A DNA stretch of 61,433 nt, the filler included, from Dimargaris cristalligena (lineage: Eukaryota), in assembly GCA_003614675.1 (NCBI GenBank). It is 2 parts of 2 records of this genome, joined end to end, with 100 filler letters (N's around TTAATTAATTAA, not from the genome) between each part and the next. Parts side by side here need not be neighbours in the genome. Positions count along the whole stretch, not along the records: positions 1 to 30,720 come from ML002452.1; 1 more part is not named here. One strand, written 5' to 3'. Positions within the stretch are counted from its first letter, which is position 1. Each line of letters opens with the position of its first letter. Shown one piece after another: positions 1,135-53,435 of this stretch. The notes beneath the pieces were generated by a model. It did not search any database. It was not told the origin of the DNA and saw only the letters and a program-made list of their open reading frames with translations. Both the position numbers and the translations under genes were made by a program.

Positions 1135-4100
1135 TTACATTCGGTGATTGAAATCGGGGGTATGGGCCAAAAGCCCGCCCTGGATATGCTTGCTTTCATG
1201 AGACGTAATTCCAATCGAATTGAGTACGTCCCGGATCTCAGTCCGGCGATTTTCACGTGGGAAAGTCCCGCGTGTCAGACTTTGAGTCTGCAACTCAGAG
1301 TCGGTATCATCCTGTTCGCTTGAATCGGGTCCGCCCATCTGGGCATACAGGGCCTCCCGTAGATTTTCAACCCGTACGTTCTCATGTTCTTGATAGGGGT
1401 GGCCCTCCAAGGAATTGCGCGCTGAAATATTAGAAATCGGCGCATTGGAAATCGACGTTCCATCGGTCGCGGACCCCAGCGTAGTCGGGGGACTAAGAAG
1501 TGTTGTTCGTGAGGTAACTGGGGATCCGGAAACATTCGACTGGCCCAGCTGAGAGGGCGGTAGGAGCAACGACCGGGTGGCGCCTCCCTTCAAGGCATCC
1601 AGATTCAGCGAAGCCCGAATTTGGGACCGGGAAGACATCCGGCGAGTGGTGCGCTGCTTATTGAGAAGCCCCGGTCGCTCCACAGCGGGGTAGTTACTCG
1701 TCAGGCGGTCCTGCAAATCGGGGTACTCGCGCAGCAACTGTTTACAGGCCGACAAGCACTCGAACACCTTAGAGACAGATACTAGCAACTCAGGCTCAAA
1801 GTGGAATTCGGATAGGCCAGTGGCAACGGAAAGGGGGATGGAAGGGGGGCCGTCGCCGGTGGGTGAGTCCCGAGTGTTAAGGGGAGTGGTCATGGCTGCA
1901 GCCAGGGCACTATCGCCCGATGACGTATTGGTGGTGGAGGAGGTCAAGGTCCGAATGGTGCCGGTTTCGGAATTCACCAACGACAGCTCAAACAAGTGGT
2001 ATTGGATGTTCTCAAGCCGGGGGGCCAAGAGGCAGCCTTCAACGACAGCATCCCACAGATTGACGGCTCGCCGCCGCCGGATAAGGTCCTCGGTGTAGTC
2101 GACCAAAGCCGGAATACCGAATGTCTGGGCAGCATAGAGCAAGTACATAACAATCATGGTGTTCAGATAGACCGCCAGGGCAGACTTCAGTTCACGTGCA
2201 AAGGTCTGCAGCTTAAGCATCATGGGAAGCACGAGGACCAACTCCTCGTGGGTGTAGCGCTGCAGGAGTAGCATGAGGATCACCCCGATACCGATCACGT
2301 CGTTACCGACACTGGACGGCTGCATAGCGTAGTTGAATAGAGCGCGGTGGAATTGGGAGCGGGACTCGATGTCAATCAGGGAGGCCCGGCGGCTTTGTAA
2401 AATGTGCCCACTGGAACCGGGCCGGGATCGGTTAGGAAGCAGCGGGGTGGCCCGGGATTCGCCGTCTACTTCGGACCCATCGTCGGGCCTTCCAAATGCG
2501 GCCACTAGCATAGTGTTTGAGTTCCGGTAGTACTCGGCATTTTGGTGGTAAAGTATGTCAATGACGAACTGAACGTAATGAAGACGGACGTTGATACTCG
2601 CCTCGGCGAAAAGGAAGGTGGTAGGGGCAATCAGACTGAGGCTGGTGGTAGAAACGATCATACTAGGCTGGTGGATATGGGCCTGTACATTGGTACGCAA
2701 TACGCAGGATACGGCTTGCAACAGAGCGATACGAAGTTTGGCAAGCTGGCGGGCGCTGGCGGCTTCCCCGGTACTGAGTGAGTGGGGAATAAGTCGCTCC
2801 CGGTAGGCGGAACTATTGCTAGTGACGGACTCATCGCCCCACGACTCGTCGGGGATCTGCAGTTCCTCCATAGTATGAACGACAATATCGGCGATTTGCT
2901 CGGCGTAATAGGTGTGGGTGCCCAATCCCCCTACGGCTGTAATTAGCTCCGATATGATATCACCGATGCGTACCGGAATGGTGGTCATCATCATGGGATC
3001 AGTGCCGGAGCTAGAGCCACCGGTACCTTGGTGACCGGGTGGGCAGGAGGACGAACCAAAATATCTACCGGAATTGATGGACCCAAAGTGGGCCCCGGGA
3101 CCAAGGCTGCTCCGAGACTTGCCCAGGGGTGGGGAGCCTAAAACCACCGAGCCCAGGGCCAATCGGGAGCAGGAGCAGGGTTGCTGGGAGTCGGTGTGGA
3201 TGGTACAGGGGGCCGTAGGTCCTGGTGGAGGGGAGGTTCCGGACGAGCGGCCCTGGTCAGAGGACAGCCGAGAAGTCTGGGAAGGAGCACCGCCACTGAC
3301 CATGGCGCTGCTCGAGGGGCCACGACCGGCCATTTGGCCCACGGAGCGAGTGTCGCTCCGGGCTTGGCCATTGATGGCAAAATTGAACCGGTCGAGGCTA
3401 GCCGACTGACGAAGGGATGGTCCCTGCATCCGAGCGATTTGGATCTCCTCCTCGTCCTGCAGTAATACATTCACCACCAAGTGGCGTAGCAGGGTGTCAA
3501 GAATTTCCAGCACGGACAGACCGACCAGGGTATACCGGCCATTTAGCAAGGACGAAAGAAGGCGAGCAAGGCTCAGCTTTTTAGGGGCCTGGAGGTAGCT
3601 CTTCTCCAGGCGGGACTGGGTGGATTCGGCAAGGGCCCCAGCTCCTCCATCCGGTCCGGGGTTCTCGCTCGGGGAAGTGGTGCTGTTGAGACCCACGCTG
3701 CTACTAGAGGCATCAGGGGCCCCAGCGGGTGCCGCGTTGAGGGATAGATCCACCTGGCCCAATTCCTGCAGTAGCTCGGACACGAGGACGAACCGGTACT
3801 GGGGTTTGAGGGAGGCCATAATGTGGCTGAAGAGGTGGATGATGGGCTCACTGGGGTGCCACTGTGGGTTGGAGAGGTTGATGAAGCCAATCGTCTGGGC
3901 CACGAGAAAACGGGAGTTCAGGCTGTTGCCATTTTCAACCATGTCCTTGAGGGTTATCCAGGCCAGAGCACTAACTATATCGGGGTTCACAGAGGGGTTC
4001 TGCATACCCAGGCTCTGGACATAGGTCCACTGTAGCTTCCGGTGGGCCTTTTCCCCCTCCGTAGGCCATACGCCGGTCAGATTTTTGAGGATGGCGGGCA

Positions 4101-5136
4101 GGACAGCCTCGAGCTCCCGGTGGCTGTCAGAGATTTGGGTTGCCTCGGAGGAAATGACGGCGTTAATGGCGCGTAATCCGAGGAAGCAGTATTTAGCCGT
4201 TAAATCGGCGGAGGCCTGGTCGTAGAGGGCGAAGGAGGCGAACTTAGATATAAGCATGTTATAGGTTGCCCGTAGACGAAGGTCGATGCCGAGAGTTGAA
4301 CCATTGTGTTGCTGACAGAATTTGACAAACTTAGTAATGCAGAAATTACGAATAGCAATGGATGGGGGAAGTGCAGAACGACGTGATTAGGGTCAGTGTA
4401 TAAGAGGGTCGCGGAGTGGTTAGAAAAAGAGGTGCATATACTTAAGGCTGACAAGGATTGTAGAGGAAAAGGGATTAAAGGAATGCAGGCTTCTCCTTTA
4501 TCTCTGCGGCCGGATGTAGCCACCGTGGGGATTACCGCTGGCCGAGGTATGCTTTACCTGGGGGAGACGACGGCCTCCCCTTCCTCCCCGGCTCACCCCC
4601 GATAGGAGTGGTGTGCATAGATGTGGCGAGCACATGAAAGGATGAATAAGGGGTATTAAGTTACGACTCTCCCCGGTGTCACGGGTGACATAGAGGGTAC
4701 TACTTACGGTGTTGGTGGCGGCCCAGATAAGGTCCAGGTTATCGGTCAGGAAAATAGACCACAAGGAGTTCAGAATGGACTTGGTGAAGTAGTTGAGATC
4801 GGATTGGCAGGCCTTAAGCAAAGCGTTGAAGATTTCCAGGGAAACCTCGACCTCATGGGGCTTGCGCTTGTAGAGTTCGCGCTGAATTTTGCGCTCGAGA
4901 TAGACGCCGACTTTAGCCAGCTTGGCGGGTTTGGAATTCGCGTAGAAGACCAAGTAGGACAGTTCGTTGGACTTGGGTTTGGAGTCGGCGGTGGCAGGGT
5001 ACGGGTAGCAGTTCTCGACTAGGGTGGCATGCTTGATGTAGCGACGCATAATGGGGAAACGGTCGACATGGAACAGCGAATGATGGGCCGACCCATCCGG
5101 GGAAGTGGGAGTGGACTCGGAGGGTGGAGCCGGCAT
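1135..5136 (-). CDS. EFR3: EFR3-family plasma-membrane scaffold for the PI4-kinase (Stt4) complex; 2 exons, ~1207 aa
   Basis: N-terminal KHATLVENCYP...PKSNELSYLVFYANSKPAKLAKVGVYLERK matches my recollection of the Efr3 N-terminus. Exon 1 is 5136-4708 (donor GTAAGT), the intron is 4707-4330 (acceptor TAAG), and exon 2 is 4329-1135, reading FVKFCQQHNGSTLGID...MLISKF in frame with the 1040-aa ORF. Start could be the downstream Met of MRRYIKH. Confidence 0.85.
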
Positions 5137-7338
5137 GGTGAGGCAGGGAAGTCAAAGAAAGCGAAGGGAGAGACAAGGGAAGGAAGTAATGCGCGCGAGC
5201 TGTGAGGGTGGGGAAGCAATTGTAAAAGGGAAAGTGACGCAAAAAGTCAAGACCAAGACTTCAGGGAACGGAGGGTTATAAGTGGAACCAGGTCAACGGA
5301 GTGTTGGGCCAGTGCATTCGGGATGGAGAGAAGTCGAGCGACAAAGTCCGAAACCTTGCAGGGTAGGAAGAGGAGCTGACCAACACAGTGGGCGCAGATA
5401 TAAAAAAACGGGGCAATAAAGAGGACGGTTAAAAGGCCACTTAACCAGACACATAAGAAGCAACGCACGGCTAACGACGAAAGTACAAAAGGTGAAGAAG
5501 AGAGGGGTGGGGGAAGTGAAGGTGTATTATAGTGATTGTTGTGGCACATACTTCTGAACTTCCCGCATAGATGCTATATGCTCTATATGCTATATACTAT
5601 ACATGCGCATTCACACTAAAGGGGAGGGAAATTCGAGGTGGGTAGTTTAGCTGTCATATGCGGTGATGGTGGTGGTGTAGAGCCCACCCTAAGAATAGGC
5701 GGGGGAGGGGATGAGAGAACCAGGCCAACTGACTGACTAAGCCATCCAGCCAATTAAAATGCGGAGAGTCCGGGTCAAGGCCAGTAACCGACGACTGGGG
5801 CACGCGGTAGGGCTATATGTGTGTGGAGGGGGGAGGTTCTGATGAAAAGAAGGGACACACAACAACAGGGCCCGTCTCCCCCCACCCTTCCCGTCGGCCG
5901 ATGGGGGGGGCGGGATGCGATAATAGAATAGCAGTGGCAGTTGCAATCGTTTTTGTCGATGACGCGCGGGGGCCGGGTACCTCACCCGTCTTCACACGAC
6001 TGACCCCCGTCCCTCCCCAACCGCAACGGCGATCGAGCCCTAATGTGTGTCCCCTCCACCCCATTTCCTAACCTCCAATATTTTCATTTTCGAGTTGCCT
6101 AGTTCCCTCTATTCACACACATACCTTCCTACCAAGATGCCGTTTAATAATACGGGAAGTGAAACATGTGGGAGGAATAATAGTAGTTAATTATGCCTTT
6201 TGGGCCGCCACTGCTGGGAGGGCGGAAGGAGGAGGGGGCTATACCTCCAAGATTCATCACCATAATCACTTCCGGGAACAGTGGGAACCAAGAAGTCATG
6301 TGAAGTCCACTAGGGCATCTGTTGGGACTATAAACAAGCACGGCCAATAGTAATAGTGACCGTCCTTCTCCCATCGGGCCGACATAAGAAACCCCTAGGT
6401 TGGCTGAGCTGCGTAAGCCCCCCCCCCCCGCTCCCCCACTCTAGAAAGTACAGTTAAAACTTTGAAAAGGGGCCTTGGTATCCTCGATTGGGCCCTTCAG
6501 TCGTTTGTTATGACTTGCAATGTTAAATAACGACAGTACACACCTACCTACTCTTTATTCCTTTAACCACCTGTACAGTACGATCATCGATGCTACCCAG
6601 TGTCTAAAAGTCTAGTCGAGCAATATCACCTGATTCTGGATCTGATTTGAAAAGGCTATTTTATTGCAACCACACCCTGCCAAACTCCTATTTCCTTTGT
6701 TTATCTTCCACCCTAACAGCAATTACAAATATTGCCACAGAAGCACCGCCCCTCCCCTCCGGGTGATACCGCCAGATTCATTCCTGAAACCATGCCGCGG
6801 AACACTTGGTAGTTAGCCACATAAGCTCATCACTGTATAAATAAACTACCCAAGAGGGATGGGGAAATTTGGTTTTATGGTAAAGATTGGGGGGCTACGT
6901 AGGTTGAGTGGATGCACATAAGGGTTCAAATGATTAAATAGCTAGTTTTGAAAGGGAAGGGTTGCTCTATAACAGGTGTATATGTATGGTGTCAATAGAC
7001 GCGGCACTTTTTAACCCCTGTTCCGAAGAAATACGGAAAATGTTTCCCCCGCTAATGCACACCAGTCATCCTTTTAGTTTCCGACTACCGTAGGCGTAAA
7101 ACCGGGGATCAGGTCAGCGAAAACGAAAATGAAAAAAGTATAGAGAGGCAAAAGGTAGTATATAAATAGGGAAAATAATAAAGTTTTACATGAAAGAAAC
7201 AACAATATGCCATCACTAATCCGGACAGAGGGGGCACAATATGTAACACTGTGGAGCTATCAAACAACACACCCTGGTACACTTCTGTAGAGCAGATTGG
7301 CATCCACCAGAAGAATCCCCCGAATACCGTCGGGAACC

Positions 7339-9351
7339 TTATAAAGTCTCCTCCATGACCTTATTTTCACCCAGAAGCATCTCGTGCAAGGCCTTACCAC
7401 CGGGTACCATGGGGTAGACATGGTCCTTCCTGTCCACCATGACTTCCAGAAGCACGGGTCCGTCGTGGTTCAGGAACTCCTCGAGGCTGGCCTTGACCTG
7501 CTCGGGGTCGGTACAGCGCATACCCCGCACGTCCATGGCCTCGGCCAGTTTAACAAAGTTGGGATTCCGCATGGGAGTTCCACTGTACCGCTCCGAGTAG
7601 AAAATATCCTGCCATTGCTTAACCATACCCTGGAACTCGTTATTGAGAACCAACACCTTGACACCGATATTGTACTGGCTCATGGTGGCCAGTTCCATGG
7701 CAGTCATGCTGAACGAGGCGTCCCCGTCAACGTCAATGACCACCTTGTCGGGCTGGGCCACCTTGGCACCAATGGCCGAGGGTAGGCCGTAGCCCATGGT
7801 ACCTAAACCACCCGAAGTAATAAATGTACGGGGCTGACGCCAGCGAATGTACTGGGCGGCCCACATTTGGTGCTGGCCGACACCAGTGGTTACGATGAAA
7901 TCCTGTTTCCGGCTGTGGAGCAGTTCATTGAGCTGCTCAAGCACGGCCTGGGCCCGGATAGGGTGGTGACCGGGAGTGGTGGTCGCAGTACGGTTAAAGG
8001 TGAATGGGTAGGTCTTCTTCCAGTGGGCAATCTTGCTCAGCCAGGCGGACCGGTCGCATTGCTTAAGCATGGGAAGAAGGGTCTGGAGGTTTTGGGTCAC
8101 GTCACCTTCGACGGCGTAGTGCACGTCGACGACTTTGTTGATATTTTTGGGCATGATATCAAAGTGGACAATGCCACCACGACCTTCGTCGGCAGCACGG
8201 CGGGCGGCGGGGGCGAATTTCTTGATGTTACCGGTAACACGGTCATCGAAGCGAGCACCGAGGGCCAGGATCACATCGGCGGACTGCATGGCCAGATTGG
8301 CGTAGGCGGAACCGTGCATACCAAGCATGTGCAGACTGCGCGGGTCAGTCTCGTCGAAGGAACCCAGGCCCATGAGGGTGGTGGTGACGGGGATGTTGGC
8401 AATGTCGACGATTTGCTTGAGCACGGCGGGGCCATCGGGGGAGCCCATGATGCCCTGGCCTACGTAAAGCACGGGGCGCTCGGCCTTATTGACCAATTCG
8501 GCAATGCGGGCCATGCTGCTCTGAAACTTGGCCTGGGATTGGGTTTCGTGGCTGGGAGCAGCGGGGCGGGAAGGGATCGTGGGGGCGATCGGGATAGGGC
8601 GGTTCAGGATACCGGCGGTGACATCCTTGGGCAGATCAACAAGGACGGGGCCGGGGCGGCCGGATGTGGCGATTTCAAAGGCCTCGTTGATGCGGCGGGG
8701 CAGATCGGCGATATCCTTGACCATGACGTTCCATTTGGTGCAGGAACGGGAGATACCCACTACATCGGCTTCCTGGAAGGCATCACTACCAATGGACGTA
8801 GTGGGGACTTGGCCACAGAAGACCACCATAGGAGTACCGTCGGAGAGGGCATCCTGCATAGGGGTGACCACGTTGGTGGCACCCGGACCGGAAGTCACTA
8901 ATACCACGCCGGGCTTACCGGTAGCGCGGGCGTAACCCTCGGCCATATGGCCGGCCCCCTGTTCGTGGCGGGGAAGGATGAACTCAAATTGATCCGATTC
9001 ATAAATAGCGTCAAACACGGGCAGAATAGCTCCGCCTGGGTAACCAAAGATGTGCTTCACCCCCTGGCGCAGCATCATTTCATGGAATATCTCACCGCCC
9101 GAACGACCCACGAAGGAGTCGTCAAACCGGTGGGGGTCAGCTGGGGAAGTAAACCGGGGGGCTTCCAGCGGTTGAACTTTGCCAGCGGCGGCAGCGGTCG
9201 AGGCTTGGGCTGAAGAAGCAGTAGTATTGGGTTGGACCACACGGGGCTGTGCGGTGGACAGGGCCCGGAAACCCTGAGGCCGGAGGGCAGCGGCGATGGT
9301 GGACCGGCCTCGGATGGCCCGGGTTAGGGCAGGCATTGAACGGGGAAACAT
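7339..9351 (-). CDS. ILV2: Acetolactate synthase (AHAS) catalytic subunit, mitochondrial; single exon, 670 aa
   Basis: Motifs [59 protein letters not shown] and the ThDP-binding GDASFSM...NNEFQGMV; Arg/Ala/Ser-rich N-terminal presequence. Confidence 0.97.
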
Positions 9352-9585
9352 GGCGCAGGTTAAGGTCGCGACGTGTGTATGTGGTTGGGTAATATATGCA
9401 CGCTAGTGGAAGCAAAAGGTAGTAGTAGTATAGGGGTGTCTTTTTGGGCACGACGAGTGGCCAGTAAACAGTCAAGTCACGGACAGGGTAGTTGTTACAC
9501 AGAGGAGAGGGAGTGAAGAAGTCACCAGCCTAAGTAGATTGAGGAGGTTAAAGTAAGTAAGTAGGTTAAGTATACAACAACCGGC

Positions 9586-10526
9586 GATAAGAACAGGGAA
9601 AACCTTAAGGGTTTAAGTAGTGAAGAAAAAGGGGCAAAGTTTCGATAATTAGTACACGGGGTCCCGTTACGTTGTTAGTCAAGGACGAAAAGAATCAATA
9701 CGCGGAGGGTCTGGAGCTAGGGGCACCGAGCCGCCGCTATTTAAACCGGCGTGTCCAGAAAAAAACCCTTCCACTCCCAGGGCGAAAACCCACTCTGGCC
9801 AATCGGAGGGTCGGATGGTGCTCTTGCTGGGAAGGCACACCGCACCCCCACTTAGACACAGCCCTTGCGCGTGAAAGGAGGATTAGTATATACTATACTA
9901 CACTTACTAATAGGGCACTCATTCATTATAGAGATATGGAATATATAGTACCTACCTAAGATAAGTAAAATAGTAGGGGATATTTTCTTCTCCCACCATT
10001 CCCTGAATAAACGTCTAATTGTTATAAACAGGCGGGTGACTCATTGGCTCACCACTCCAGCAAACTGGCCCAATTCGAGACCAAGTTGACTCACTACCCG
10101 TCACCCATACTTATCACCCATCCAATCGTATCCCCCGTCTTATCGCTGCCCATGCCCCTTATTCCCCCCCCATCCTGACTGATGTTTCGTCGCCAACATA
10201 TGCGGGAGGGGGGTGGGTCTGCCTTATCAGACGCCTCATTTGGTATCTATATCTACACCTATACCTCGGCCACGCACCAGGGGTAGAACAAGAGATGCTG
10301 CATCCCTGACCAGCCATGCATACCGCCAGTATCTCAGATGAAGTAGAGTTTTATTTAAAGTGGATCTAAGGCAGGCGACCTTTTGGTCATAACCCTAATC
10401 CACAGGGAACATATTAAAGGATAGATGGCTCAAAATCCCTCAAAAGCTCAGATGGAGAGGGAAAAGACAGGAGGTCGCTAGTATCTCAAATGAGTCCGAT
10501 TGTGTAGTCCACCAGCCTGCCTTATC
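9586..10526. promoter_or_regulatory. ILV2 upstream region with two TGACTCA (Gcn4/CpcA-type) sites and six GATAAG/CTTATC GATA-factor sites
   Basis: TGACTCA at 10037-10043 (GTGACTCAT) and 10087-10093. GATAAG at 9586 and 9960; CTTATC at 10110, 10139, 10223 and 10521. Function is inferred from motif identity only. Confidence 0.55.
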
Positions 10527-11375
10527 AACCCCCCTCCCTATCTTAGTTAGAATATCTTTAATAGTATACCCAAATGGCAATACTATATAGCAATCGGTTA
10601 TACTTCACATATTTTCACCAGCCAGCTAGTCTAATTTACCCTTAAATAGCCAGACGTTTTCGTGACTCTCCAAATTAACACACACATCAGCAACCCAGTA
10701 AATCACTCTATTATTAACTCATTGATGGTTACACGATAACCACGAGCCTATTCATGGGCTAGCATAGCCAGCTATGCGGGTTTAGGCCTGCAGTACCGGT
10801 GGAATTGCTGAATGGAACTACATCTCCCGCCAGAGAGCAAAATCTGCCATCAGATTAATTAGCTGGCTTACCCACTGGCGGCATTCATCCCCGATATAAT
10901 CAGTCCCCTCTCCGACCCACCCCCGCATGTATTAATCAAACTGGTGCATCCCCCCATTGGTCAATCCCTTTGAATAATATCCCGTTATATATGCGCGCAT
11001 ATACTATCATTTAAAGAGTGCTCCTTGTTTGGGTCATTTTGTTATGATACCATGGCTATAAATGCTATGAATCGCATTTACACTTTCTCACTCCTCTTTA
11101 ACTATTTAAAATCTTTCGAGCACGTTTCTTCTCTATGGACTCCACACTCTATTCATACATATAGCACCACCATCAATGTGTTGACCCAAATATAGCCTGA
11201 GCAGTGCAAGCATGATTGCACATCAACCTCAAGTCAAGGTAATCGCATAAATTAGAAAAATTCACAAAATAGCGCATAAACAGAAATCAACAGAGTGACA
11301 ATAGCCAAAAGCATTTCCAAATTGTAATTTTATATTCCATGCGGCACCAGTCTGCCCAATACATAGCACAAACAT

Positions 11376-12648
11376 TTAACCAGGGGGGAGCATACTGACA
11401 TCCACTACCGAGTTCGCCTGGACGGGTTCCTCGGCCGCTTCCTCTTGGTACATGGACAGATTCTGGGACCGGGGCATCACCATCAAACCACTGCGTACGG
11501 CCTCCAAAATCCCGAACGGGCGGATCAGGGCAAGGAAGGCGTCGATCCGCTCACTCTTGGCGCTCAGTTCAATGGCCATGCTTTCCGCCGAAACATCCAC
11601 CACCCGGCCCTGGAAAAGGGACGCAAGCTCACGCAGGGCCTGTAGATTACGGTGAGAGTACATGAGGGGTTCGGACGAGAGGGCCTGTGGTGCCCCGCCT
11701 TCTTCCTGATCCATACCGCTGGTACTACGGCCTGAGTCCGTATTCCCGTCGTCGCCCTTGTAGGCAGGCACGTGGCCCATTTCCTCTTTACTGTGGCGGT
11801 AGGCGCGCATCTGGCGGATGGCCATCTCGGGCCCCAAAATGGACACCTTGGCCAGGAGCAGTTCCCGCTGGATCAGCTGCGTATCCGTGTAGTCCAGTAC
11901 CGCCCAAATGGGTACGAGATCCTCGAGCTGGCGCTTGGCCTGTTCCATCACTACCCGGTCCCCCTTGAGGACAATGGTCATACGGGACAGTCCCGGTACC
12001 TCGGTTTTGGAGGCCACGAGCGTATCAATACTGTACCCCCGCGCGGCCATGATACCGGTGACCCGACTTAGCACACCAGGCTCGTCCTGGGCCAGGCAAT
12101 CCAGAATGTGCTTGCGCTCGCTCGTGCTCTTGCTGATTGGGGTATTATAAAGGATGTTGGAGACGGCCTCCTCGGCCGTGATCTGGGGCGGCGCGGCAAA
12201 CCGCTTACGGTTGGGGTGGCTGAGTTTGCCAGCATGGGGATGGGACAGCTTGTAGGAGTTGGCTTTGGTAGATGAGTCGTTGCTCTGGTGGCGAATCGGC
12301 TGTTTGGCCCACGCGGCACACATGGGATTATCATACCACACCGCAGAGGACAAATGCAATTTTTAATCAAGCAGAATTGGTGAGATATGGTAACACGGGG
12401 TAGAGGGGGGTTAGTTACGGGCATACACACTCGGAGTCTACCTGCGCCAAAGGATAGGTCTCTCTCCCGTCTTTTCTTTTGTCAGCTTTGGTACAAATCC
12501 ACCAGGGGGAACAACCCCGCCTGTGTGGCCCTTTGGTGACTTGGCGACTTGGTGACGAAGGGAGGGGGGTGCTTACCTGAAGGAACCAACTGGTCGGGGC
12601 CACTCGCGTGGCCGCCACCCGCTGACGAATGGCGAGGGAGAGTAGCAT
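11376..12648 (-). CDS. ILV6: Acetolactate synthase small (regulatory) subunit, mitochondrial; 2 exons
   Basis: EAVSNILYNTP, ACT-domain QDEPGVLSRVTGIMAARGYSIDTLV, QAKRQLEDLVPIWAVLDYT, RELLLAKVSILGPE and C-terminal VDVSMLPPG are typical of fungal Ilv6. Exon 1 is 12648-12577 (MLLSLAIRQRVAATRVAPTSWFLQ, donor GTAAGC), the intron is 12576-12300 (CAG acceptor, position less certain), and exon 2 is 12299-11376. Confidence 0.93.
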
Positions 12649-12850
12649 GCGGGTCGGAGTAGATGAGCCCAACGAAGTGAGCTGAATAATGGCAGGGAGT
12701 AAAAAGAACAACAACTGATACGGCGACAAATCAATACTGTCTATCAAATTTAATACAGGGAAAAGAGCCCCCCACTAGCAGGGGCCGGTTTAGCGCGTTT
12801 TATAGCCGTATCATACCCCCGACTGGGATTATCAAAACCAACCATTATTG

Positions 12851-13050
12851 TGACTCAATAATGTTACGGAATAGACGCACTAGAGCTGGATGCAAGGGAG
12901 CCCTCCTAAAGGTATGGTATAGAATGTGACCTTTTCCACTCACTGTCTTCTCTCCATTATGACCAACTGGGTTGCCACCTAAAAAGTGAGTCACACCAGT
13001 CATTGGACCGTTTGGCCTAGTCCAATACTATACTTGGCCTATCACGTGAT
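12851..13050. promoter_or_regulatory. Divergent ILV6/PPR intergenic region with two Gcn4/CpcA-type sites and a palindromic E-box
   Basis: TGACTCA 12851-12857, TGAGTCA 12987-12993 (GTGAGTCAC), ATCACGTGAT 13041-13050. Confidence 0.55.
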
Positions 13051-13611
13051 ACTAAGACGGCCTAGCTACTCATTCCCCCGTTCTCCCAGCCTTAGTATGT
13101 TCCAGTTATATTATATGCGGACCCCTCCCAAGGTTAGTATGGTTGGTTGGGGAACAGATTATCCATAATGAGAATACACACAAAAGAAAGACACCACCAA
13201 CCAACAGGTAGATAGATTATTAATGCTAACTGGCCAGTCAGCCACACCATCTAAACCCCCATAGCCATACGGGGGGCCCTTTAGACCAGCTCAAAATACT
13301 GACGGTACAGTGTGTGAGATTATTAGGAATGTGTGGGTGTACTTGTAAAGTGGTGGGCAGGGCTCTGTAGAATTCCCGTCACTCCTGCTTCTTTGTCTTG
13401 GCCGAGTCCACCTTTACTACCGCTATACCACCTCTCTTTATATGTACGTCTTCGGTTGTAATTTTAATCCGTGGATCTTCATTAGTTTCGTTGAATCTCT
13501 TGTCAGACAGCTGGTTAGTGTAGTCTCGATCTCCACCTACTCTACAGAGTGCTTCCATTATCCCCCAGCTATTGTCGTGTCTACTTTATCCGATTCATCG
13601 CCAAATTCGCC

Positions 13612-14880
13612 ATGAAGCGTATGCCCGCCCTCCAAGCGCTCCGGTTCCCCGGCCGTCTCCCTAATCCCCGGGCTGCCGTGCCGAGCTCACTGGCCCGTCT
13701 TGCCACTAGCTCCCATAGTATCCCTGTCGAGTCGCCGGTTGATACGCGTCCCTCCCCGGCCGCCGCGGCCCTTGGCCAACGGACTCGCATTCCCCCCCTA
13801 CCCACCCAGCAGCCGCCTTCCAACGAGCCCCAGCCCCTCGAATTTCTGAATGTATCCCCGACCCTTTACCAACTGCGTCTCGGTCTATGGCAGTTCCGCC
13901 GCGACGACGTTTGGACCATTTACCAGCGCCTGGTAGCCCAGGACCAATTGTGCTACTTGAGCGCCCGGGACCATTTCAATATCTTGCACTCCATCACGCT
14001 CAAGGGTTACCTGTGGTTCAACGACAGTACGGCCAAGCACGAAATGTCCAAAATCATGTACGTCTGGAACCAGATTCAGGCCTGCGGACTCACCCCCACC
14101 GTGCGGGAGTACAACCACATGCTCGAGTTTCTGGCCCGGGCCCAGGATATTCGCCGCCTGGAGGCCGTGTTCCAACAGATGAAGACGGCCGGGGTTACCC
14201 CCAACTTTTTCTCCTATAACATGGTCATGTACGGCTACGCCAAGGCCGGCGAAGCCTCCCAGACCCTGGGCATTTTGGAATCCATTCGGGCCAAATTTGA
14301 TATTCGTTCGGGCTTCACCCGCTCGGCCCTGATCGAGCTCTATGGTGCCCTGGGCCAATCCAACGAGGCTCTGGCCATTTACCACGAGACCAAGGTCGAG
14401 CAAGGCGGGTCGGGCGGATGGCAGCACGGTCACAATATCCACTCGCGCAACGCCCTATTGCGGGCCCTGGGCAGAAGCCGCCGCCTGGAAACTATGCACC
14501 AGATTTTCGTGGAAGCCTGGCGCAACCATGGTATCATGGGTCTCGACCAGACTTCCTTTGAGATTATGATCCAATGGCACTCCACCCATAACGCCCTGGA
14601 GACCGCCCAGAATTACTTTGAATTGATGCAGGCGCCCCCCTTCAACTTTAAACCCACCGCCCGGACCTTCAAGTACCTGCTACCCCCCGCGGTGTGCGCC
14701 GGCGACCCGGTGTTCGCCGTCAAACACTTCCGGACCATGACCGACAAATTCCAAATTCCGCCCCTGGGCTACATGCTGCGGCATATGGTGGATTACTACG
14801 AACAAGAGGTTCTGGCGGAATCTAAACAAAACGATAGCGAAGTGGAGCGGGCTTACACTACTGTTGAGCCAGCAGTATAG
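13612..14880 (+). CDS. Pentatricopeptide-repeat (PPR) protein, probably mitochondrial; ~422 aa
   Basis: 35-aa repeats such as TVREYNHMLEFLARAQDIRRLEAVFQQMKTAGVTP and NFFSYNMVMYGYAKAGEASQTLGILESIRAKFDIR; first ATG at 13612 gives an Arg-rich presequence (MKRMPALQALRFPGRLP). Confidence 0.85.
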   Translation: MKRMPALQALRFPGRLPNPRAAVPSSLARLATSSHSIPVESPVDTRPSPAAAALGQRTRIPPLPTQQPPSNEPQPLEFLNVSPTLYQLRLGLWQFRRDDVWTIYQRLVAQDQLCYLSARDHFNILHSITLKGYLWFNDSTAKHEMSKIMYVWNQIQACGLTPTVREYNHMLEFLARAQDIRRLEAVFQQMKTAGVTPNFFSYNMVMYGYAKAGEASQTLGILESIRAKFDIRSGFTRSALIELYGALGQSNEALAIYHETKVEQGGSGGWQHGHNIHSRNALLRALGRSRRLETMHQIFVEAWRNHGIMGLDQTSFEIMIQWHSTHNALETAQNYFELMQAPPFNFKPTARTFKYLLPPAVCAGDPVFAVKHFRTMTDKFQIPPLGYMLRHMVDYYEQEVLAESKQNDSEVERAYTTVEPAV

Positions 14881-16468
14881 TGTGCCCTAATATAGACCAT
14901 CCATTTTTTGTTTTCATTTTTGTTTTTCCAATCTGTAGCCTTCCACCCTGTACCAGCCCTCCTTATTTATTTACCCGTCTATCCAATGCACCATGTAAAA
15001 CCGCCATCAAGAATAAACCCCAACCGAATTTTCCACTCCCATCCCTAATATTTACTTTCCTTCTTTGTGGATAAGCCAGGTAAATCCAATGTAATTCAGC
15101 GGTGTTAAAACCAATGTTGGTAGAATGTGTATTTATATTAGGGCGTTTTTGTGATACATATATAGCGTTTTAGGCTGTGAGGGAACGGGGTCAAATGTAA
15201 GGGCTCGGGGGGGAATATGGATATGGAGGGAGGGCGTTAGCGTTTCCTACCAATGGAAATATTGGGAATATGGTAGGGGGGATGGTCGAAGATTAAGGAT
15301 TGTTCCTAACTAATTCACAGCAGATACTCTTAAAGGACGTCGGGTTATGATTGTCTGATTTATTCATAGAATGGGGAATCTGTTGTTATTTATACTACGA
15401 CAGTAAGTTCAAGAATTGTTACTCGATTGTAATAGTGGCGACGATGGCTGAAGATTTGTCATTGATCATTTGGGTACGATTTGTCTTTGCGAAATGGGTC
15501 ATTAAGATACACTATCGCAGCCGAGGGCGTCGTTTGTGTGTGAACTGGGTCGGAGTGAGGACGGATATGGACTGATATTTAACTAGTGTAGATACATGTT
15601 TGATTAAACGATAAAGGACATAACGACGGACAAATACGGCCTTGCTGTATAGGCGAAGCGTGCCGAGCAACCTTCGCCAAATTGGCGTCCAAATTAACAT
15701 CTGTGGCCTGATTGAACCAAATTCTATTTTTAATCATCAATTTTATTTCCGATGATTTGACAACCACCATATTCGGGGAGTGTAAGGTTACTCAGGTTCA
15801 TTAAGTGGCCACCGTTGGAAATGGTTGGCATTACTGGACGGTGACGCACACCAGATCCGATGGGGAAGTGAAGCCACAGTATTTATGGCGTAGGTATTAG
15901 CACCAAAAGGGACTCCATAGTCAACAAAATGATATTTATAAAGGAATTGACTGGAACCATGTGTAAACTGGACACGAGAATACCTCAATAGGGTAACTTG
16001 AAATCACAGGTTAGGTATGGAATATAAAAGAACCAGGGAAAACACGCTAATATGAATAATGAACCGAGGAAAATTGAAATGAAATCATTATATACGGGTA
16101 CAAGTGGGCGTTGGTAAAGCCTAGAGGATTTTTCCTAAATTTATCCACTAGGCAAGGGGAGAAGAATAACCTATTGATTATTGGGGAGGGGACATGCGTC
16201 CACCTAAAATGGATGTTGGGCGAATCTTCCTGATCCGCTTCCCATACTGACAATTGGCTAGCTCAGAGCCTTTCAAACCAATTAAAATCAGCGCCAAATT
16301 AACCTAGTGGGGTTTAAAAATTCGACAATTATTGAAGAGCAACAGTTACACAGACGAGTTCGCAAGGGATCATAAAAACTATTAGGGGTGGGTGGGGGTG
16401 CGCGCTAGCGTATAGCCCACCGTATAGGACATTGGACATACGCATCCCCGAGAAATATACCACTATCA

Positions 16469-19414
16469 TCATTGGGGAGGGTATTCACGGCGGTAATGGT
16501 GACCGCCCTCGGGACCGGAACGAGGAATACCCGAGCCAGGAGGCATGCCGGACGACGATGGCGGGGGTTGGTTCAGATGCTTTTGTTCACCCATGCTCAT
16601 TAAAGATTCAACTACGTTGGTGTAATCTTCATCCATGGCCCGGCCGTTGTGGTGAGCCGCAGAAGGTGGGCGGCCCGGGGGAGGGGGGTGAGGCGATGGG
16701 TAGTGTGGAGGCGGAGGTCCACCTGCACCCGAGTTAGGGCCGGGACCGGGTCCATTGGGCGGATAGTAGGCCCGGGCCCGCTCGTCATGACCGTAGTAAG
16801 TACCTGGTCCGGGCTCGTTATTATCAACCTCTCTCCGAGTTAACGAGGACGAGTGCGGTGGCGGTTGATGATGGGGGTGTCGCCCGCCCTAGATAAAAGT
16901 GAAGCATACAAACGCAGCCAAGTGCAAAAATAAATATAGACAAAACAAGTGTTAGTCAAAGAATCGGGCATACATGCAATAGAATCGACATTAGGCGCCA
17001 TTTACGGAGATTCACATAGGAAACTCAATCGCAATTGAGATCGAGGCTATTTCGAAATAATCAAAATTGAGCAAAATCCGGCTATTCAAGAGAAGTATAT
17101 ATATAGTCCATATCTAGTAACTTCAATAACGCAGTGCGAGATGAAGGGGGCGCGTATTCGAAACATTACCATTCGATGACTCATGTCGGGATTTTCTTCG
17201 GGGTAGCCATGATGGTGAGAGGGACCGCTGGGGTTCCCGGCGTGGTGAGGGCGCGGGGGTTCACCACCCATGTAACCGGCCGGAGGTTCATGGGGACCGC
17301 GCATAGGAGCGGGGCCACCCCGGCGGTCCGCATAAGCGGAGGAATGAGGCGGGGGAGCACCACTCGCACCGTACGGGTGGTGGTGGCCGTGGGGGTCGTG
17401 GTATCCGACCGACTGCGGTGGCGCCTGGGCCGAGTTAATCCGCGGAGACATGCCATTGCGATCATTAGGCGGAAGGTGATGCGGCGCACGGCGGTCATGC
17501 GGGTGACCCGGAGGGAAGCCGTCTGTTGTAGGGGAGTGCATGGGGCGCATGGCGTTGGGGGCACTACTCACGCTACCCCGTTGGCTCGGGTGGTAACCAG
17601 GAGGAGGAGGGGGAGGTTGCGAGGACGGTGGAGCCGAATGGCCATGGTGGCCCTGCGGTGGAGGCGGGTAACTCGGATGATGGGAGACAGCGCCGTAACC
17701 GGAGCTCCCGGAGTGCGGGGGCATGGGGGCATGCGGATGGGGTGGAGTCATATGAGCGGGTGGGTAGCCCGTGGAGGGGTGCGACCGGGGAGGTGCGCCC
17801 GTGTTATCCACTGGAGGGCCGTTGGGAACCGGCCCTATCGGATGGCCGGGGGGAGGGCCATACGGGGATGGTGGGGGATGCGGGCCCCGAACAGCCACTG
17901 GTGGTGGCTGGCTTGGATGGCCGTAGTGCGGAGGTGCCACACCAGGGGCCATGGGCGCCGCCTTAGGTGTAGCACTGGGACCACCATTGATCGGAGGGGC
18001 AACAGAAGCGACCGCGTGGAGGGGAGGGGCCGATCCGGCGGGGCCAGCGGCGGGCGGTGCGTTTGCCGGCTCCGGTTGATTGATGGTGGGTGGGGCTGGC
18101 TGGTTGTGGGTCACGGCGGGATCAAGTGGAGCGGGGGGGGTTGGACAAATGGGAGAAATTACCCGTGTTTTGGGCATGCTGGAGCACCGCCAGTCGCTGT
18201 TTCACAACCTGATTGTTGGGATCCACCTCCAAAGCGCGGCCATAAGCGTTGACGGCGTCTTCGATCTGGTTGTTACAGTGCTCGTACAGGGTGCCCAAAT
18301 TGTGCCACACTTCCTTCATCTGGGAATCGAAGCGGAGGGCCCGACTGTAGGCATCCAGGGCGTCTCGGTACTGGGCAATGCGGAAATACAGCACGCCGAT
18401 GGAGCACCAAAACTGGGCGTTGTTGCTGTCACGGTACACGGCCTGCTGGTAACTGTCGTAAGCCTCGGTGTGCTGGTTGGACGTCATGTAGCAGCGGCCC
18501 AATAGGTACCAGGACTGGGCGTCGGCCTCGTTGGCGGAGATGGACCGGGTTAACAGGCTAACCGCATTCTCCATGTTGTAAAAGTTCACGGTGGGCTGGG
18601 AGTAGAGCCAACCCAGCTGCTGCAAGACCTTGGCGTGTTTGGGGTTGGTGGTCAGCACCTTTTCAAAGGCCTCTTTAGCCTGGATGGGATCGAGCAGGAG
18701 CTCGTGTAAATGACCGATTTGGAACAAAATATCGCTCTCGGTTAGCGGACTGGGAGGATTATTGAGGATATAACGGAAGTAAGACAGGCTGGACTCGTAC
18801 TTGCGCTGGGATTTGTGGATCAGGCCCAGTCGGAAATAAATCTCGTTGGACTTTTCAAAGTGGGGGTCGATTTTCATTACAGCGGAAAAGGCTTCCTCCG
18901 CATGCTCGTACGAGCCAAAACGGTCGTACAGGATACCGATCCCGTACCAGAGCTTGGGTTCCTTCGCGTTGGGCAAATGGTAAAGCGCCTGCTGATAGGC
19001 CGAATAGGCCCGGGCTAGCTTGTCGGTCATTAAGTAGCAGTGACCGAGGGCCCCCCAGACCTCACCGTTGATGGGCTCAACGCCAAGCACCTGCTGAAAG
19101 TACTCGGCGGCTTTTTCGAATTCGTCACGGGCACGGTGTATGGCGGCAATTTTGGTGAGAGCGGGAACAGAGTACGGATTGTGTTTCAAGGCGGACTCGT
19201 AGGCTTTAATCGCGCGTTCTTTGTCGTCCATCTGCTCCGAGATGGTTCCGATTTGGACCCAGATCTGCTCGCGCATCTGAACATCTTTCTGTATGGGGGA
19301 TGCAGGTACTTTGGCAGGGACCGGCGCGGAGTGATTAAAGTTGGATGCGGGAAGCCCGTTGGGCAGAGGCAGTCCAGGGGAGCGGACCGGCTGGCCGAGA
19401 ACTGGTGTAGCCAT
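16469..19414 (-). CDS. CYC8: General transcriptional co-repressor Cyc8/Ssn6: TPR domain plus Pro/His-rich tail; frame break near 18135
   Basis: TPR motifs WGALGHCYLM, EPKLWYGIGILYDRFGS, NEIYFRLGLIHK, DAQSWYLLGRCYM, YQQAVYRD and FWCSIGVLYF. The tail continues in another frame to 17170; intron 17169-16889 (GTAATG...TTGACTAAC...TAG); last exon 16888-16469 contains MDEDYTNVVESLMSM, resembling the C-terminal DEDY motif I recall from fungal Cyc8. An extra upstream exon is possible (CAG at 19422-19420). Confidence 0.88.
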
Positions 19415-22400: not shown

Positions 22401-22478
22401 TTGCGAGCCTAACCGAGGGACGCCGACGGCATAGGCAAACGTCGTTGTATTTACATGGCAATCCTTCCCTTCGAGTAC

Positions 22479-25842
<3,364 letters not shown>

Positions 25843-27892: not shown

Positions 27893-29462
27893 ATGGTTCA
27901 TTCGCCAGCCCCACTTGAGAATGCCGAAAAGGCCATCGCTCAGCTCGTTTCCCTTGTCGACCAAATCAATAGCAACACAGCACAAACACCGACCGCAGCG
28001 GGATCCCGGGTAAGCTACTAGTCGGTAGTTTTCTGGGCTCTGCATTGCCAATTCACTCCAACAGACCGAATGCATAGCCCTACATCCTCATTATAGCGAT
28101 GCTTCGGTCATTAGCTTAACCCACCGGCGTTATCTACACGGGGTACTCCATAGCTGATAATGCCCCCAAAATTGAAGACCAAATAGCACCACCCCTTTCT
28201 AACTACTATACCCATAACCCGAATTTTCATTACAATTCTTACACTTTGGCACTCGCAGGAACACTGGGCCTCTATTCAACCGTTGGTGTACGAGGCCAGT
28301 GTGCTGTTTGCCGACTTAAGGGCATCGAACCGCCAACTCAATGAGCACCAGCACACCCTGAAAGCCGAAACGAACATAGCACGTCAAAAAATGGATGAGC
28401 TAGGTCTCGATCTTCAGAAACTGGCCTACGAAAAGGCCCATTTGCAGCAGGAGATCGACTCCATTAAGAATGTGAAGTAAGTATCCGAGGGACTGGGGGA
28501 AGATAACATTGTACGAGACCCACCAGTCAATACCTTTTATATGTTGCCTGAATGACACACTGGTGGTCCTACACATAGTCCGGCTGTAAACTATCCACCG
28601 AGTGCCCCCAATTTAAAGTCGAAAGATTTAGACCAAATCATTAATTCTCCTAACCAATATGTAATTATACGGTCCCGCTCCTAACTCCCTAGACCATTCT
28701 ATACCGAGCTGGGCCTGCAGCCGATTGAGAATTTCCGGGCCTATGTCGAATCCCGCCAGCAAGACTCCGCAGCCACAACCGATGATGAAATTATCCAGCG
28801 TCTAGAATTCGAGAAACTGGAACGGCAGAGGTAAAGCCGCCAAGCCTCGGCATGCAATCTCTATGCACCAAGCTGAATAGTATAATCCATTATGTTTGTT
28901 CATCATCTGAGTGTTTCCATTTATCCACGCATTGCGAGCAGATGGTATTCTGGATTTGCCCTAAGCATCTGTATTCGCGTACTATTTTACTGACATGTAT
29001 ATGGGCTCTTAACATCCAAATATCTTCACCTGTGTAGATTGGAAAAGCGGAAACTCGAACTTTTGGAACAGCAGGCTCTCCTACGACGGGAAAATCTGCG
29101 ACACCGGAGCTCCGTTGACACGCTTAGCAAGCAGATTGCAAAATTTACTTCGGTAAGCTCCCTTTGGCCTATGGCATCCCCATCTTCCGTTTACTCGTTT
29201 ATTACCACAATGCGAACTCTGACTACCCGTCACAGTGGACTCCATGGCAAAATCTGTTGGTATAGGGTTTTCGTCGAAATATAGAAAACCACCTGGGATA
29301 TATGAGGTTTGGATCTGTACCATTTGCAACTCACCTACATGTTTTTGTACCATTCTTGATTCTCTATCATGTCCCTAGGGTGCCGCGCCGCTCAAGAATA
29401 TATTTTCCGGCCTGGAGTATTCCACAGGCCGCCCGACGGAAAACAGCGGCCTATTCAATTAA
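27893..29462 (+). CDS. THOC5: THO complex subunit 5 (Thoc5/FMIP family), short fungal form; 5 exons, ~223 aa
   Basis: Exons 27893-28009, 28259-28476, 28693-28830, 29038-29152 and 29379-29462 splice in frame with GT-AG introns. Product contains LRASNR...KAETNIARQKMDELGLDLQKLAYEKAHLQQEI and RLEFEKLERQRL, matching Thoc5 coiled-coil motifs as I recall them. Confidence 0.8.
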
Positions 29463-53339: not shown

Positions 53340-53435
53340 CCTTCTGGAGCCGCATTCCTAAGCGGATTGTCATTGTTTAGTAGACCCCCCACTCTATGTG
53401 TTACCAGTGTTGGCTAGATATGCATCGTATTGGTG

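What the first reader, a model, noticed from the sequence alone, without database searches (positions are those of the whole stretch)
7339..12648. Catalytic and regulatory AHAS subunit genes (ILV2, ILV6) are direct neighbours
Seen: ILV6 and ILV2 lie head-to-tail on the minus strand about 2 kb apart, with no gene between them and no gap. Known: they encode the two subunits of one enzyme; bacteria pair them in operons (ilvBN, ilvIH), whereas in S. cerevisiae they are on different chromosomes. Both have mitochondrial presequences and ILV6 has an intron and fungal-type sequence, so this is not a recent bacterial operon transfer. Inference: a eukaryotic primary-metabolism mini-cluster kept for subunit co-regulation. 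I do not know whether it has been described.
Basis: partly seen in the sequence, partly recalled or inferred. Interest (0 to 1): 0.75.

Follow-up and report, generated by a model that had tools for sequence, protein, structure and literature searches.

The report
Linked acetolactate synthase subunit genes
The genes for the catalytic and the regulatory subunit of the first enzyme of valine, leucine and isoleucine synthesis sit next to each other in this early-diverging fungus, and the same two genes also share a contig in many distant relatives, so this is an old linkage and not an accident, though a similar cluster has already been noted in one other fungus.

Summary
ILV2 (7342-9351, minus strand, one exon, 670 aa) and ILV6 (exons 12648-12577 and 12299-11379, minus strand, one 277-nt intron) lie head to tail. 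The 2,024-bp spacer between them is non-coding. ILV2 is 100% identical to the public Dimargaris cristalligena protein, so the source is a Zoopagomycota mycoparasite.

The pairing is more than chance. These species belong to Dimargaritales, Kickxellales, Zoopagales and Mortierellales. In contrast, 0 of 80 mostly Ascomycota-like metagenome ILV6 loci carry ILV2.

It is not a bacterial operon. ILV6 comes first, it has an intron, and its phylogeny is fungal.

Each gene has its own upstream region with two TGASTCA motifs. Co-regulation through a shared transcription factor therefore needs no adjacency, and "kept for co-regulation" remains untested because no RNA run was listed.

A 2022 paper already calls ilvB-ilvF1-ilvE1 (ILV2-ILV6-ILV5) a gene cluster in Mortierella alpina.

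Two caveats apply. Short-read contigs of four runs all break at a high-copy repeat inside the spacer. The window is also two contigs glued at 30721-30820, so the ILV3 gene at 55 kb is not shown to be linked.

Verdict: real, a new member of a known kind, moderate interest.

The parts
7342..9351 (-). ILV2: acetohydroxyacid (acetolactate) synthase catalytic subunit. Single exon, 670 aa, with a basic N-terminal presequence-like stretch. Stop codon at 7339-7341.
   Evidence: ORF. (TPP_enzyme_N/M/C). (TIGR00118, 768.5 bits against cutoff 538.35). (100% identical to the D. cristalligena protein P0123 over 90% of the query; 74-77% identical to other Dimargaritales over 96-98%). (best solved relatives are fungal AHAS chains, e.g. 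6wo1_A and 6u9d_A).
9352..11375 (.). 2,024-bp non-coding spacer: the ILV6 3' flank followed by the ILV2 upstream region.
   Evidence: no ATG-started ORF over 52 aa; GC 0.449 against 0.59-0.60 in the CDSs. (no tRNA or Rfam hit). (no N).
10037..10093 (.). Two TGACTCA motifs (10037-10043 and 10087-10093), 686 and 736 bp upstream of the ILV2 ATG. Candidate binding sites for a Gcn4/CpcA-type bZIP factor (inferred).
10333..10448 (.). Short high-copy dispersed repeat in two parts (about 10333-10392 and 10398-10448). All short-read contigs break here.
   Evidence: summed depth 1,544-62,800 in bin 10244-10477 against 26-1,010 in the flanks; loose ends at 10332-10334, 10392, 10441 and 10448. (no second copy in the window).
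11379..12299 (-). ILV6 exon 2 (307 codons): ACT domain, a fungal-type insert and the ALS_ss_C domain. Stop codon at 11376-11378.
   Evidence: (ACT_AHAS_ss, ALS_ss_C). (TIGR00119, 186.1 bits against cutoff 56.9; 216 residues span 157 profile positions, which shows the insert). (6wo1_B and 6u9d_C are the best solved relatives).
12300..12576 (-). ILV6 intron, 277 nt, GTAAGC...CAG, phase 0.
   Evidence: The spliced N-terminus matches relatives P0004-P0006 in length and character. There is no RNA evidence.
12577..12648 (-). ILV6 exon 1 (24 codons), presequence-like. The public 315-aa model P0003 instead starts inside my intron and lacks a presequence.
12851..12993 (.). TGACTCA (12851-12857) and TGAGTCA (12987-12993), 203 and 339 bp upstream of the ILV6 ATG. 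They lie in the 961-bp region shared with a divergent PPR-repeat gene.
   Evidence: One search identifies the PPR gene at 13519-14880 (+).

Best explanation
These are two separately transcribed nuclear genes for one mitochondrial enzyme, acetohydroxyacid synthase. ILV2 encodes the thiamine-diphosphate-dependent catalytic subunit. ILV6 encodes the ACT-domain regulatory subunit, which in yeast confers valine feedback.

They lie in tandem, ILV6 upstream and ILV2 2 kb downstream, in Dimargaris cristalligena (Kickxellomycotina, Zoopagomycota). Both were inherited vertically.

The pairing is the local form of an old linkage of early branched-chain amino-acid genes in early-diverging fungi. That linkage is seen in Zoopagomycota and Mortierellomycota and is absent from the Ascomycota-like loci sampled here.

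Shown: gene identity, arrangement, fungal ancestry, and co-occurrence on one contig in many relatives.

Inferred: each gene is driven from its own upstream region, and both respond to general amino-acid control through paired TGASTCA sites.

Open: whether the linkage persists through selection (balanced dosage or co-inheritance of two interacting subunits, or a shared chromatin domain) or by inertia.
For: Identity.

Source organism: ILV2 is 100% identical to the D. cristalligena protein P0123. The contig length recorded for P0123, 30720, equals the length of the window's first contig.

Vertical descent: the window's ILV6 groups with Dxerosporica, Tieghemiomyces and Dispira orthologues (96/97 support) inside a Kickxellomycotina clade (100/99).

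Linkage in relatives: the ILV6 list and the ILV2 lists give the same 'longest_contig' for the same species in 12 of 24 comparable species or strains:
- Dispira simplex 19063
- Coemansia sp. RSA 2675 13500
- Coemansia RSA 2049/1939 cluster 23449
- C. thaxteri 33479
- Martensiomyces 195328
- Thamnocephalis 30442
- Actinomortierella ambigua 68757
- A. wolfii 197451
- Podila clonocystis 32624
- Gryganskiella 44339
- Mortierella sp. 14UC 27376
- a Linnemannia elongata MAG 2500456 (too long to be informative)

Independent statement in print for Mortierella alpina: IlvB, IlvF1 and IlvE1 are on one contig and are called a cluster (PMC8880518, passages read).

Contrast group: 0 of 80 metagenome ILV6 loci contain ILV2 at tblastn E<=1e-3. 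Of these loci, 32 have at least 3 kb downstream and 21 have at least 3 kb on both sides. Most are Ascomycota-like by their best named hit.

Regulatory motifs: 4 of the window's 9 TGASTCA sites lie in the 1,961 bp upstream of the two ATGs (binomial 1.2e-4). A further 3 of the 9 lie within 1 kb upstream of the ILV3 ATG on the other contig.
Against: No contig of 4 runs bridges the repeat in the spacer, so the physical join is not independently confirmed.

'Same contig' is inferred from equal contig lengths, not from coordinates.

Twelve of 24 comparisons gave different contig lengths, among them the close relative Tieghemiomyces (51882 against 18228) and Mycoemilia (105087 against 79107). Several of these are uninformative, either because a contig is under 6 kb or because the cluster has many members.

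The one Mortierellaceae-like metagenome contig (L005) has ILV6 without ILV2 within 3.3 kb upstream or 5.4 kb downstream. It has no TGASTCA site at all.

The TGASTCA sites are motif matches only. The whole-window count (9 against 4.9 expected) is reached by 5 of 100 shuffles.

There is no expression data.
Confidence: 0.8

Rival explanations
1. Chance juxtaposition: two unrelated rearrangements happened to place ILV6 next to ILV2 in this species only.
For: Any single adjacent pair picked out after the fact among thousands of genes could arise by chance. The closest relative by ILV6 identity, Tieghemiomyces, shows different contig lengths for the two genes.
Against: The two genes share a contig in 11 informative other species of four orders, on contigs as short as 13.5, 19 and 23 kb. 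For genomes of tens of Mb (my estimate), the chance of two random genes sharing such a contig is well under 1% per species. A cluster is also reported in M. alpina.
Confidence: 0.05
2. Assembly artefact: the two halves of the contig were joined wrongly through the high-copy repeat in the spacer, or by a chimeric amplification product.
For: All Logan contigs of 4 runs end or start inside 10333-10448, many loose ends lead elsewhere, and no record bridges the repeat.
Against: In all four runs, including one from a second study, the ILV2-side and ILV6-side contigs stop at matching window positions. In run X2, short exact pieces (10237-10361, 10363-10426, 10407-13500) follow the window sequence at locus-like depth. 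The repeat is only about 115 bp. A false join that happened to unite the two subunits of one enzyme, the same two genes that share contigs in relatives, is very unlikely.
Confidence: 0.04
3. Remnant of a bacterial ilvBN/ilvIH-type operon acquired by horizontal transfer.
For: Bacteria pair these two genes in operons (recalled knowledge). NCBIfam bacterial models match both proteins strongly.
Against: The 120 best hits listed for each protein are fungal or unnamed. The window's ILV6 groups with its Dimargaritales orthologues inside a Kickxellomycotina clade. ILV6 has a spliceosomal-type intron, a fungal-type insert and a presequence. The gene order is small then large, with a 2-kb spacer.
Confidence: 0.01
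4. Neutral relic: the linkage is ancestral but persists only because rearrangement has not yet separated the genes. It has no functional benefit.
For: Each gene has its own upstream region and motifs. The linkage is absent from the sampled Ascomycota-like loci, and fungi without it, such as yeast, regulate the enzyme well (the yeast point is recalled). Half of the comparisons gave different contigs.
Against: The flanking genes are not shared between the window (EFR3, PPR) and the Mortierellaceae-like contig L005 (hydroxyisobutyryl-CoA-hydrolase-like gene, LeuB fusion). The surroundings were therefore reshuffled while the ILV2-ILV6 linkage survived across two phyla.
Confidence: 0.35

Closest known systems
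[quoted passage not shown]
   Same: The catalytic (IlvB = ILV2) and regulatory (IlvF1 = ILV6) AHAS subunit genes lie on one contig in an early-diverging fungus and are called a cluster. There is also a second ILV6 paralogue elsewhere, as in D. cristalligena (P0013).
   Different: That cluster also includes ILV5 (IlvE1). No ketol-acid reductoisomerase was found on the window's 30.7-kb contig. It is in a different phylum. The paper gives contigs, not distances or orientation, and makes no cross-lineage comparison in the passages I read.
Bacterial ilvBN / ilvIH / ilvGM operons (recalled textbook knowledge)
   Same: The same two subunits are encoded side by side on one strand.
   Different: In bacteria the order is large then small, with abutting genes on one transcript. 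Here the order is small then large, with a 2-kb spacer, an intron, presequences and separate upstream regions.
Saccharomyces cerevisiae ILV2 / ILV6 and the solved fungal AHAS holoenzymes (6u9d, 6wo1)
   Same: The proteins are orthologous. E-values are 4.3e-249 to 6u9d_A and 1.1e-66 to 6u9d_C. The function is expected to be the same: a valine-regulated mitochondrial AHAS.
   Different: In yeast the two genes are on different chromosomes (recalled from their systematic names). None of the 80 mostly Ascomycota-like metagenome ILV6 loci has ILV2 nearby.
Neighbouring genes for subunits of one complex in eukaryotes (for example divergent histone pairs, or fasA/fasB in some fungi; recalled)
   Same: Two interacting subunits of one enzyme are encoded by neighbouring genes.
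   Different: Those pairs are often divergent and share a promoter. This pair is tandem and each gene has its own upstream region.

Membership tests
Biosynthetic-type acetolactate synthase large subunit (TIGR00118; fungal Ilv2) | Three ThDP-enzyme domains in N, M, C order, and a whole-protein score above the curated equivalog cutoff | tested here: met
   PF02776, PF00205 and PF02775 at residues 84-198, 281-425 and 490-637; 768.5 bits against cutoff 538.35.
Biosynthetic-type acetolactate synthase large subunit (TIGR00118; fungal Ilv2) | ThDP-binding GDG...NN motif (motif recalled) | tested here: met
   Read directly in the translation...[31 protein letters not shown]...
Biosynthetic-type acetolactate synthase large subunit (TIGR00118; fungal Ilv2) | Enzyme activity and mitochondrial location | not testable with these tools
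   Only the N-terminal composition is available (8 R+K, 0 D+E in 60 residues).
Acetolactate synthase small (regulatory) subunit (TIGR00119; fungal Ilv6) | N-terminal ACT domain plus ALS_ss_C domain, and a score above the curated cutoff | tested here: met
   PF22629 at 88-150 and PF10369 at 240-298; 186.1 bits against cutoff 56.9.
Acetolactate synthase small (regulatory) subunit (TIGR00119; fungal Ilv6) | Valine feedback regulation of the catalytic subunit | not testable with these tools
   Inferred from orthology to 6u9d_C and 6wo1_B.
Early-diverging-fungal BCAA gene cluster (M. alpina ilvB-ilvF1-ilvE1 type) | ILV2 and ILV6 on one contig | tested here: met
   Window 7342-12648, inside contig 1-30720.
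Early-diverging-fungal BCAA gene cluster (M. alpina ilvB-ilvF1-ilvE1 type) | ILV5 (ketol-acid reductoisomerase) also in the cluster | tested here: not met
   No such Pfam hit among the ORFs scanned on contig A: four of at least 150 aa (the overlapping, opposite-strand ORFs of that size were not scanned) and, 23 of the 25 ORFs of at least 90 aa listed outside the TPR gene (17086-19435) in 14881-30720, plus two ORFs at 5811-6440. A gene split by many introns could be missed.
Early-diverging-fungal BCAA gene cluster (M. alpina ilvB-ilvF1-ilvE1 type) | Orthology and common descent of the linked pair across lineages | tested here: inconclusive
   The window's ILV6 groups with its Dimargaritales orthologues inside a Kickxellomycotina clade. 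The two genes share a contig in 12 of 24 comparisons. Coordinates, orientation and ILV6 paralogue assignment in the relatives were not obtainable.
Bacterial ilvBN-type operon | Large subunit gene first, small subunit gene immediately after, one transcript (recalled) | tested here: not met
   The order is reversed, the spacer is 2,024 bp, and ILV6 has an intron.

The most novel reading that the evidence does not exclude
The ILV6-ILV2 pair is a surviving core of an ancient cluster of branched-chain amino-acid genes (ILV2, ILV6, and in some lineages ILV5 and LEU2). In this reading the cluster dates back to the common ancestor of Zoopagomycota and Mucoromycota sensu lato, has been held together by selection on two interacting subunits for hundreds of millions of years while the surrounding gene order was scrambled, and was dissolved in Dikarya.

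Side observations fit a wider tendency of these lineages to cluster and fuse BCAA genes:
- ILV6 lies next to a LeuB-aconitase-type fusion gene in a Mortierellaceae-like contig.
- An ILV2-LeuB fused gene model exists in Bifiguratus.
- An Atlas cluster of 437 Iso_dh+Aconitase proteins is commonest in Zoopagomycota.
Probability: 0.4. Interest if true: 0.6.

Novelty: new member of a known kind. Interest (0 to 1): 0.42.

Why it matters
Clusters of primary-metabolism genes are rare in eukaryotes and are used to ask why gene order is ever conserved. A two-subunit enzyme whose genes stay linked across two fungal phyla but not in Dikarya would be a clean natural test case. It would let co-regulation, dosage balance and co-inheritance be compared as explanations. 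It concerns an enzyme that is an established herbicide and antifungal target. For annotation, the region also shows that the public models of both genes in this species lack their presequence-coding 5' ends.

Tried and rejected
- Whole genome of the window: not held. I could not count copies or search for ILV5/LEU genes genome-wide.
- RNA evidence: no RNA holder was listed for 7000-13000. The intron, transcript ends and co-expression are therefore untested.
- The listing of cluster members, to get accession numbers (consecutive numbers would show adjacency): the database was switched off. I used equality of 'longest_contig' instead.
- Earlier findings of this scan: three look-ups returned nothing.
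- Metagenome scan with an ILV6 alignment: 80 loci, none with ILV2. Nearly all are Ascomycota-like by best named hit, so the scan gave a contrast group and not relatives. One Mortierellaceae-like contig (L005) carried ILV6 beside other BCAA-related genes but not ILV2.
- Genome-contig scan: 35 pattern matches, no relative.
- Leu3-type sites (CCGGNNCCGG, motif recalled): none in the upstream region of either gene.
- TGASTCA in L005: none.
- ILV3 (55244-56806) as a third member of the cluster: rejected as evidence, because it lies beyond the artificial linker on a different contig.
- A second ILV2 or ILV6 copy, or a LeuB/aconitase remnant, in the window: none.
- Structure prediction and complex prediction: not run, because these are textbook orthologues of solved complexes.
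- Literature: searches found no statement on ILV2-ILV6 linkage. The search led to PMC8880518. PMC8262921 was checked by passages and says nothing on AHAS gene positions.

Full report
**What is there**

On the minus strand, a 670-codon uninterrupted ORF (7342-9351) encodes a protein with the three thiamine-diphosphate enzyme domains in order. It scores 768.5 bits on the NCBIfam equivalog for the biosynthetic acetolactate synthase large subunit, against a cutoff of 538. Its best solved relatives are fungal AHAS catalytic chains.

Upstream on the same strand, a 307-codon ORF (12299-11379) carries the AHAS small-subunit ACT domain and the ALS_ss_C domain. It scores 186 bits on TIGR00119 against a cutoff of 57. 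Its best solved relatives are the fungal regulatory subunits 6wo1_B and 6u9d_C.

A 24-codon exon (12648-12577) ends at GTAAGC. It joins in phase, across 277 nt ending in CAG, to that ORF. The resulting N-terminus matches those of Tieghemiomyces and Dispira Ilv6 in length and basic character. The public 315-aa model (P0003) starts inside my intron and has no presequence. The public ILV2 model (P0123, 613 aa) replaces the presequence with a six-residue mini-exon taken from the spacer. Relatives cover 96-98% of my 670-aa reading. No RNA was available to decide between the models.

**The spacer**

The 2,024 bp between the ILV6 stop and the ILV2 start are 45% GC, against about 60% in the coding parts. 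The spacer has no ATG-started ORF over 52 aa and no tRNA or Rfam match.

It does contain a short repeat at about 10333-10448. Summed depth in Logan contigs there is roughly 50-65 times that of the flanks in all four runs laid. Every contig stops at this repeat, and many loose ends lead elsewhere. No listed record bridges it, so I cannot independently confirm the join. In each run the two flanking contigs end at matching window positions. In run X2, exact short pieces follow the window sequence across the repeat.

**The window is a composite**

Positions 30721-30820 are N44-TTAATTAATTAA-N44, an artificial linker. The first contig is exactly 30,720 bp. That is the contig length recorded for the Dimargaris cristalligena ILV2 protein, which is 100% identical to the window's ILV2. 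The AHAS pair lies wholly in this contig.

A dihydroxy-acid dehydratase gene (ILV3, main exon 55244-56806) lies on the second contig. Its nearness in the window is not evidence of linkage.

**Is the pairing more than chance?**

I therefore compared the 'longest_contig' value that the homologue searches report for each protein cluster.

Between the ILV6 list and the two ILV2 lists, 24 named species or strains other than the source could be compared.
- Dimargaritales: Dispira simplex 19,063.
- Kickxellales: Coemansia sp. RSA 2675 13,500; the Coemansia RSA 2049/RSA 1939 cluster 23,449; C. thaxteri 33,479; Martensiomyces 195,328.
- Zoopagales: Thamnocephalis 30,442.
- Mortierellales: Actinomortierella ambigua 68,757; A. 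wolfii 197,451; Podila clonocystis 32,624; Gryganskiella 44,339; Mortierella sp. 14UC 27,376; and a 2.5-Mb Linnemannia MAG contig, which is uninformative.

Twelve differ: Tieghemiomyces, D. xerosporica, Mycoemilia, Coemansia RSA 1933, Podila humilis, P. epigama, Lunasporangiospora, Mortierella spp. AM989 and GBA39, L. gamsii, Rhizophagus and Gigaspora. Four of these involve a contig under 6 kb, and several involve clusters with many members, where the recorded contig may belong to another assembly. Coemansia RSA 1939 by name is ambiguous (ILV6 48,955 against 23,449 for the ILV2 cluster). A 'different' result is therefore weak evidence, while a 'same' result is strong.

For genomes of tens of Mb (my estimate), two random genes would share a 13-70 kb contig well under 1% of the time.

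**Contrast group**

A metagenome scan with an ILV6 alignment returned 80 loci. By best named hit, nearly all are Ascomycota-like. None contains ILV2 at tblastn E<=1e-3, and 32 of them extend at least 3 kb downstream and 21 at least 3 kb on both sides. This fits the recalled fact that yeast ILV2 and ILV6 lie on different chromosomes.

**Already in print**

[quoted passage not shown] It places IlvB, IlvF1 and IlvE1 on one contig. ILV2-ILV6 linkage is therefore described for one Mortierellomycota species.

My other searches found nothing on Zoopagomycota or on conservation across lineages. Supplements of that paper were not read.

The one Mortierellaceae-like metagenome contig, L005, matches the second cluster of that paper. 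It carries ILV6 (3188-4180), followed by a LeuB gene, and no ILV2.

The window's contig has no ketol-acid reductoisomerase among the ORFs scanned. Here the cluster is only the pair.

**Origin**

The 120 best hits listed for each protein are fungal or unnamed. In a maximum-likelihood tree, the window's ILV6 groups with the other Dimargaritales orthologues inside a Kickxellomycotina clade. A second, diverged ILV6-like protein of D. cristalligena (P0013, 55% identical, other contig) and its Dispira counterpart (P0096) form a separate old branch of that clade.

ILV6 precedes ILV2, which reverses the bacterial order (recalled). There is an intron and a 2-kb spacer. A recent operon transfer is excluded for practical purposes.

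**How it probably works**

Each gene has its own upstream region. The window holds nine TGASTCA sites, against 4.9 expected; 5 of 100 shuffles reach nine.
- Two sites lie 686 and 736 bp upstream of the ILV2 ATG.
- Two lie 203 and 339 bp upstream of the ILV6 ATG.
- Three lie within 1 kb upstream of the ILV3 ATG, which I place at 54388.

Under a uniform model this is 7 of 9 sites in 2,961 bp (P about 2e-8). For the pair alone it is 4 of 9 in 1,961 bp (P about 1e-4).

TGASTCA is the recalled binding site of Gcn4/CpcA-type factors that drive general amino-acid control in fungi. I infer that the three genes belong to such a regulon. That would co-regulate the two subunits whether or not they are neighbours.

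No Leu3-type site is present in either upstream region. L005 has no TGASTCA.

The adjacency may add balanced dosage, co-inheritance of matched alleles or a shared chromatin state, or it may add nothing. The flanking genes differ between the window (EFR3-like, PPR) and L005, while the ILV2-ILV6 linkage persists across phyla. This mildly favours selection, but I could not test it.

**Verdict**

The phenomenon is partly known. I rate it a new member of a known kind, of moderate interest.

The more interesting possibility is an ancient linkage conserved across Zoopagomycota and Mortierellomycota and lost in Dikarya. It is supported only indirectly and needs gene coordinates from the relatives' assemblies.

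Noticed in passing
window 30721-30820: Artificial linker N44-TTAATTAATTAA-N44. The window is two separate contigs (1-30720 and 30821-61433) glued together, so any 'linkage' across this point is not real.
   Followed up: yes
window 54388-56806 (+): Dihydroxy-acid dehydratase (ILV3; TIGR00110, 747.8 bits) with several short 5' exons and a presequence-like start. It is a third BCAA-pathway gene in the window but lies on the second contig. Three TGASTCA sites (53436, 53492, 54237) lie within 1 kb upstream of the start I propose.
   Followed up: partly
window 10333-10448: Short dispersed repeat in the ILV6-ILV2 spacer, with summed depth about 50-65 times the flanks in four sequencing runs. It has no other copy in the window and no Rfam match. 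Its nature (MITE-like element, transposon fragment or something else) is unknown.
   Followed up: partly
L005 4783-8255 (+), Mortierellaceae-like metagenome contig: A single 1,033-aa ORF joins a LeuB 3-isopropylmalate dehydrogenase (TIGR00169, 419.9 bits, above cutoff) to an aconitase/isopropylmalate-dehydratase-like large-plus-small domain. It lies directly downstream of ILV6. Upstream of ILV6 is a 3-hydroxyisobutyryl-CoA-hydrolase-like gene. The ESM Atlas holds a cluster of 437 Iso_dh+Aconitase proteins, commonest in Zoopagomycota.
   Followed up: partly
protein P0144 (Bifiguratus adelaidae): The public gene model fuses ILV2 (residues 8-582) to a LeuB domain (581-904, 417.7 bits). This is either a true fusion or two merged tandem neighbours. 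Either way, ILV2 and LEU2 are adjacent in that Mucoromycota species.
   Followed up: partly
proteins P0013, P0005 and P0096: Dimargaritales carry a second, fast-evolving ILV6 paralogue. In Dispira parvispora both paralogues report the same 9,336-bp contig, which suggests they are neighbours there. In D. cristalligena the paralogue reports a different contig (33,385).
   Followed up: partly
window 7342-9351 and 11379-12648: The public gene models for both genes (P0123, 613 aa; P0003, 315 aa) lack the presequence-coding 5' ends that the ORF and the relatives support.
   Followed up: yes
window 19500-30700 and 45100-53700: Long stretches without ORFs of 150 aa or more. Diverged direct repeats of about 300 nt lie at 47591/52079 and 48583/53052 (70-71% identical), and 68-81-nt repeats are shared between 22038-22178 and 48893-49034. 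Not examined further.
   Followed up: no
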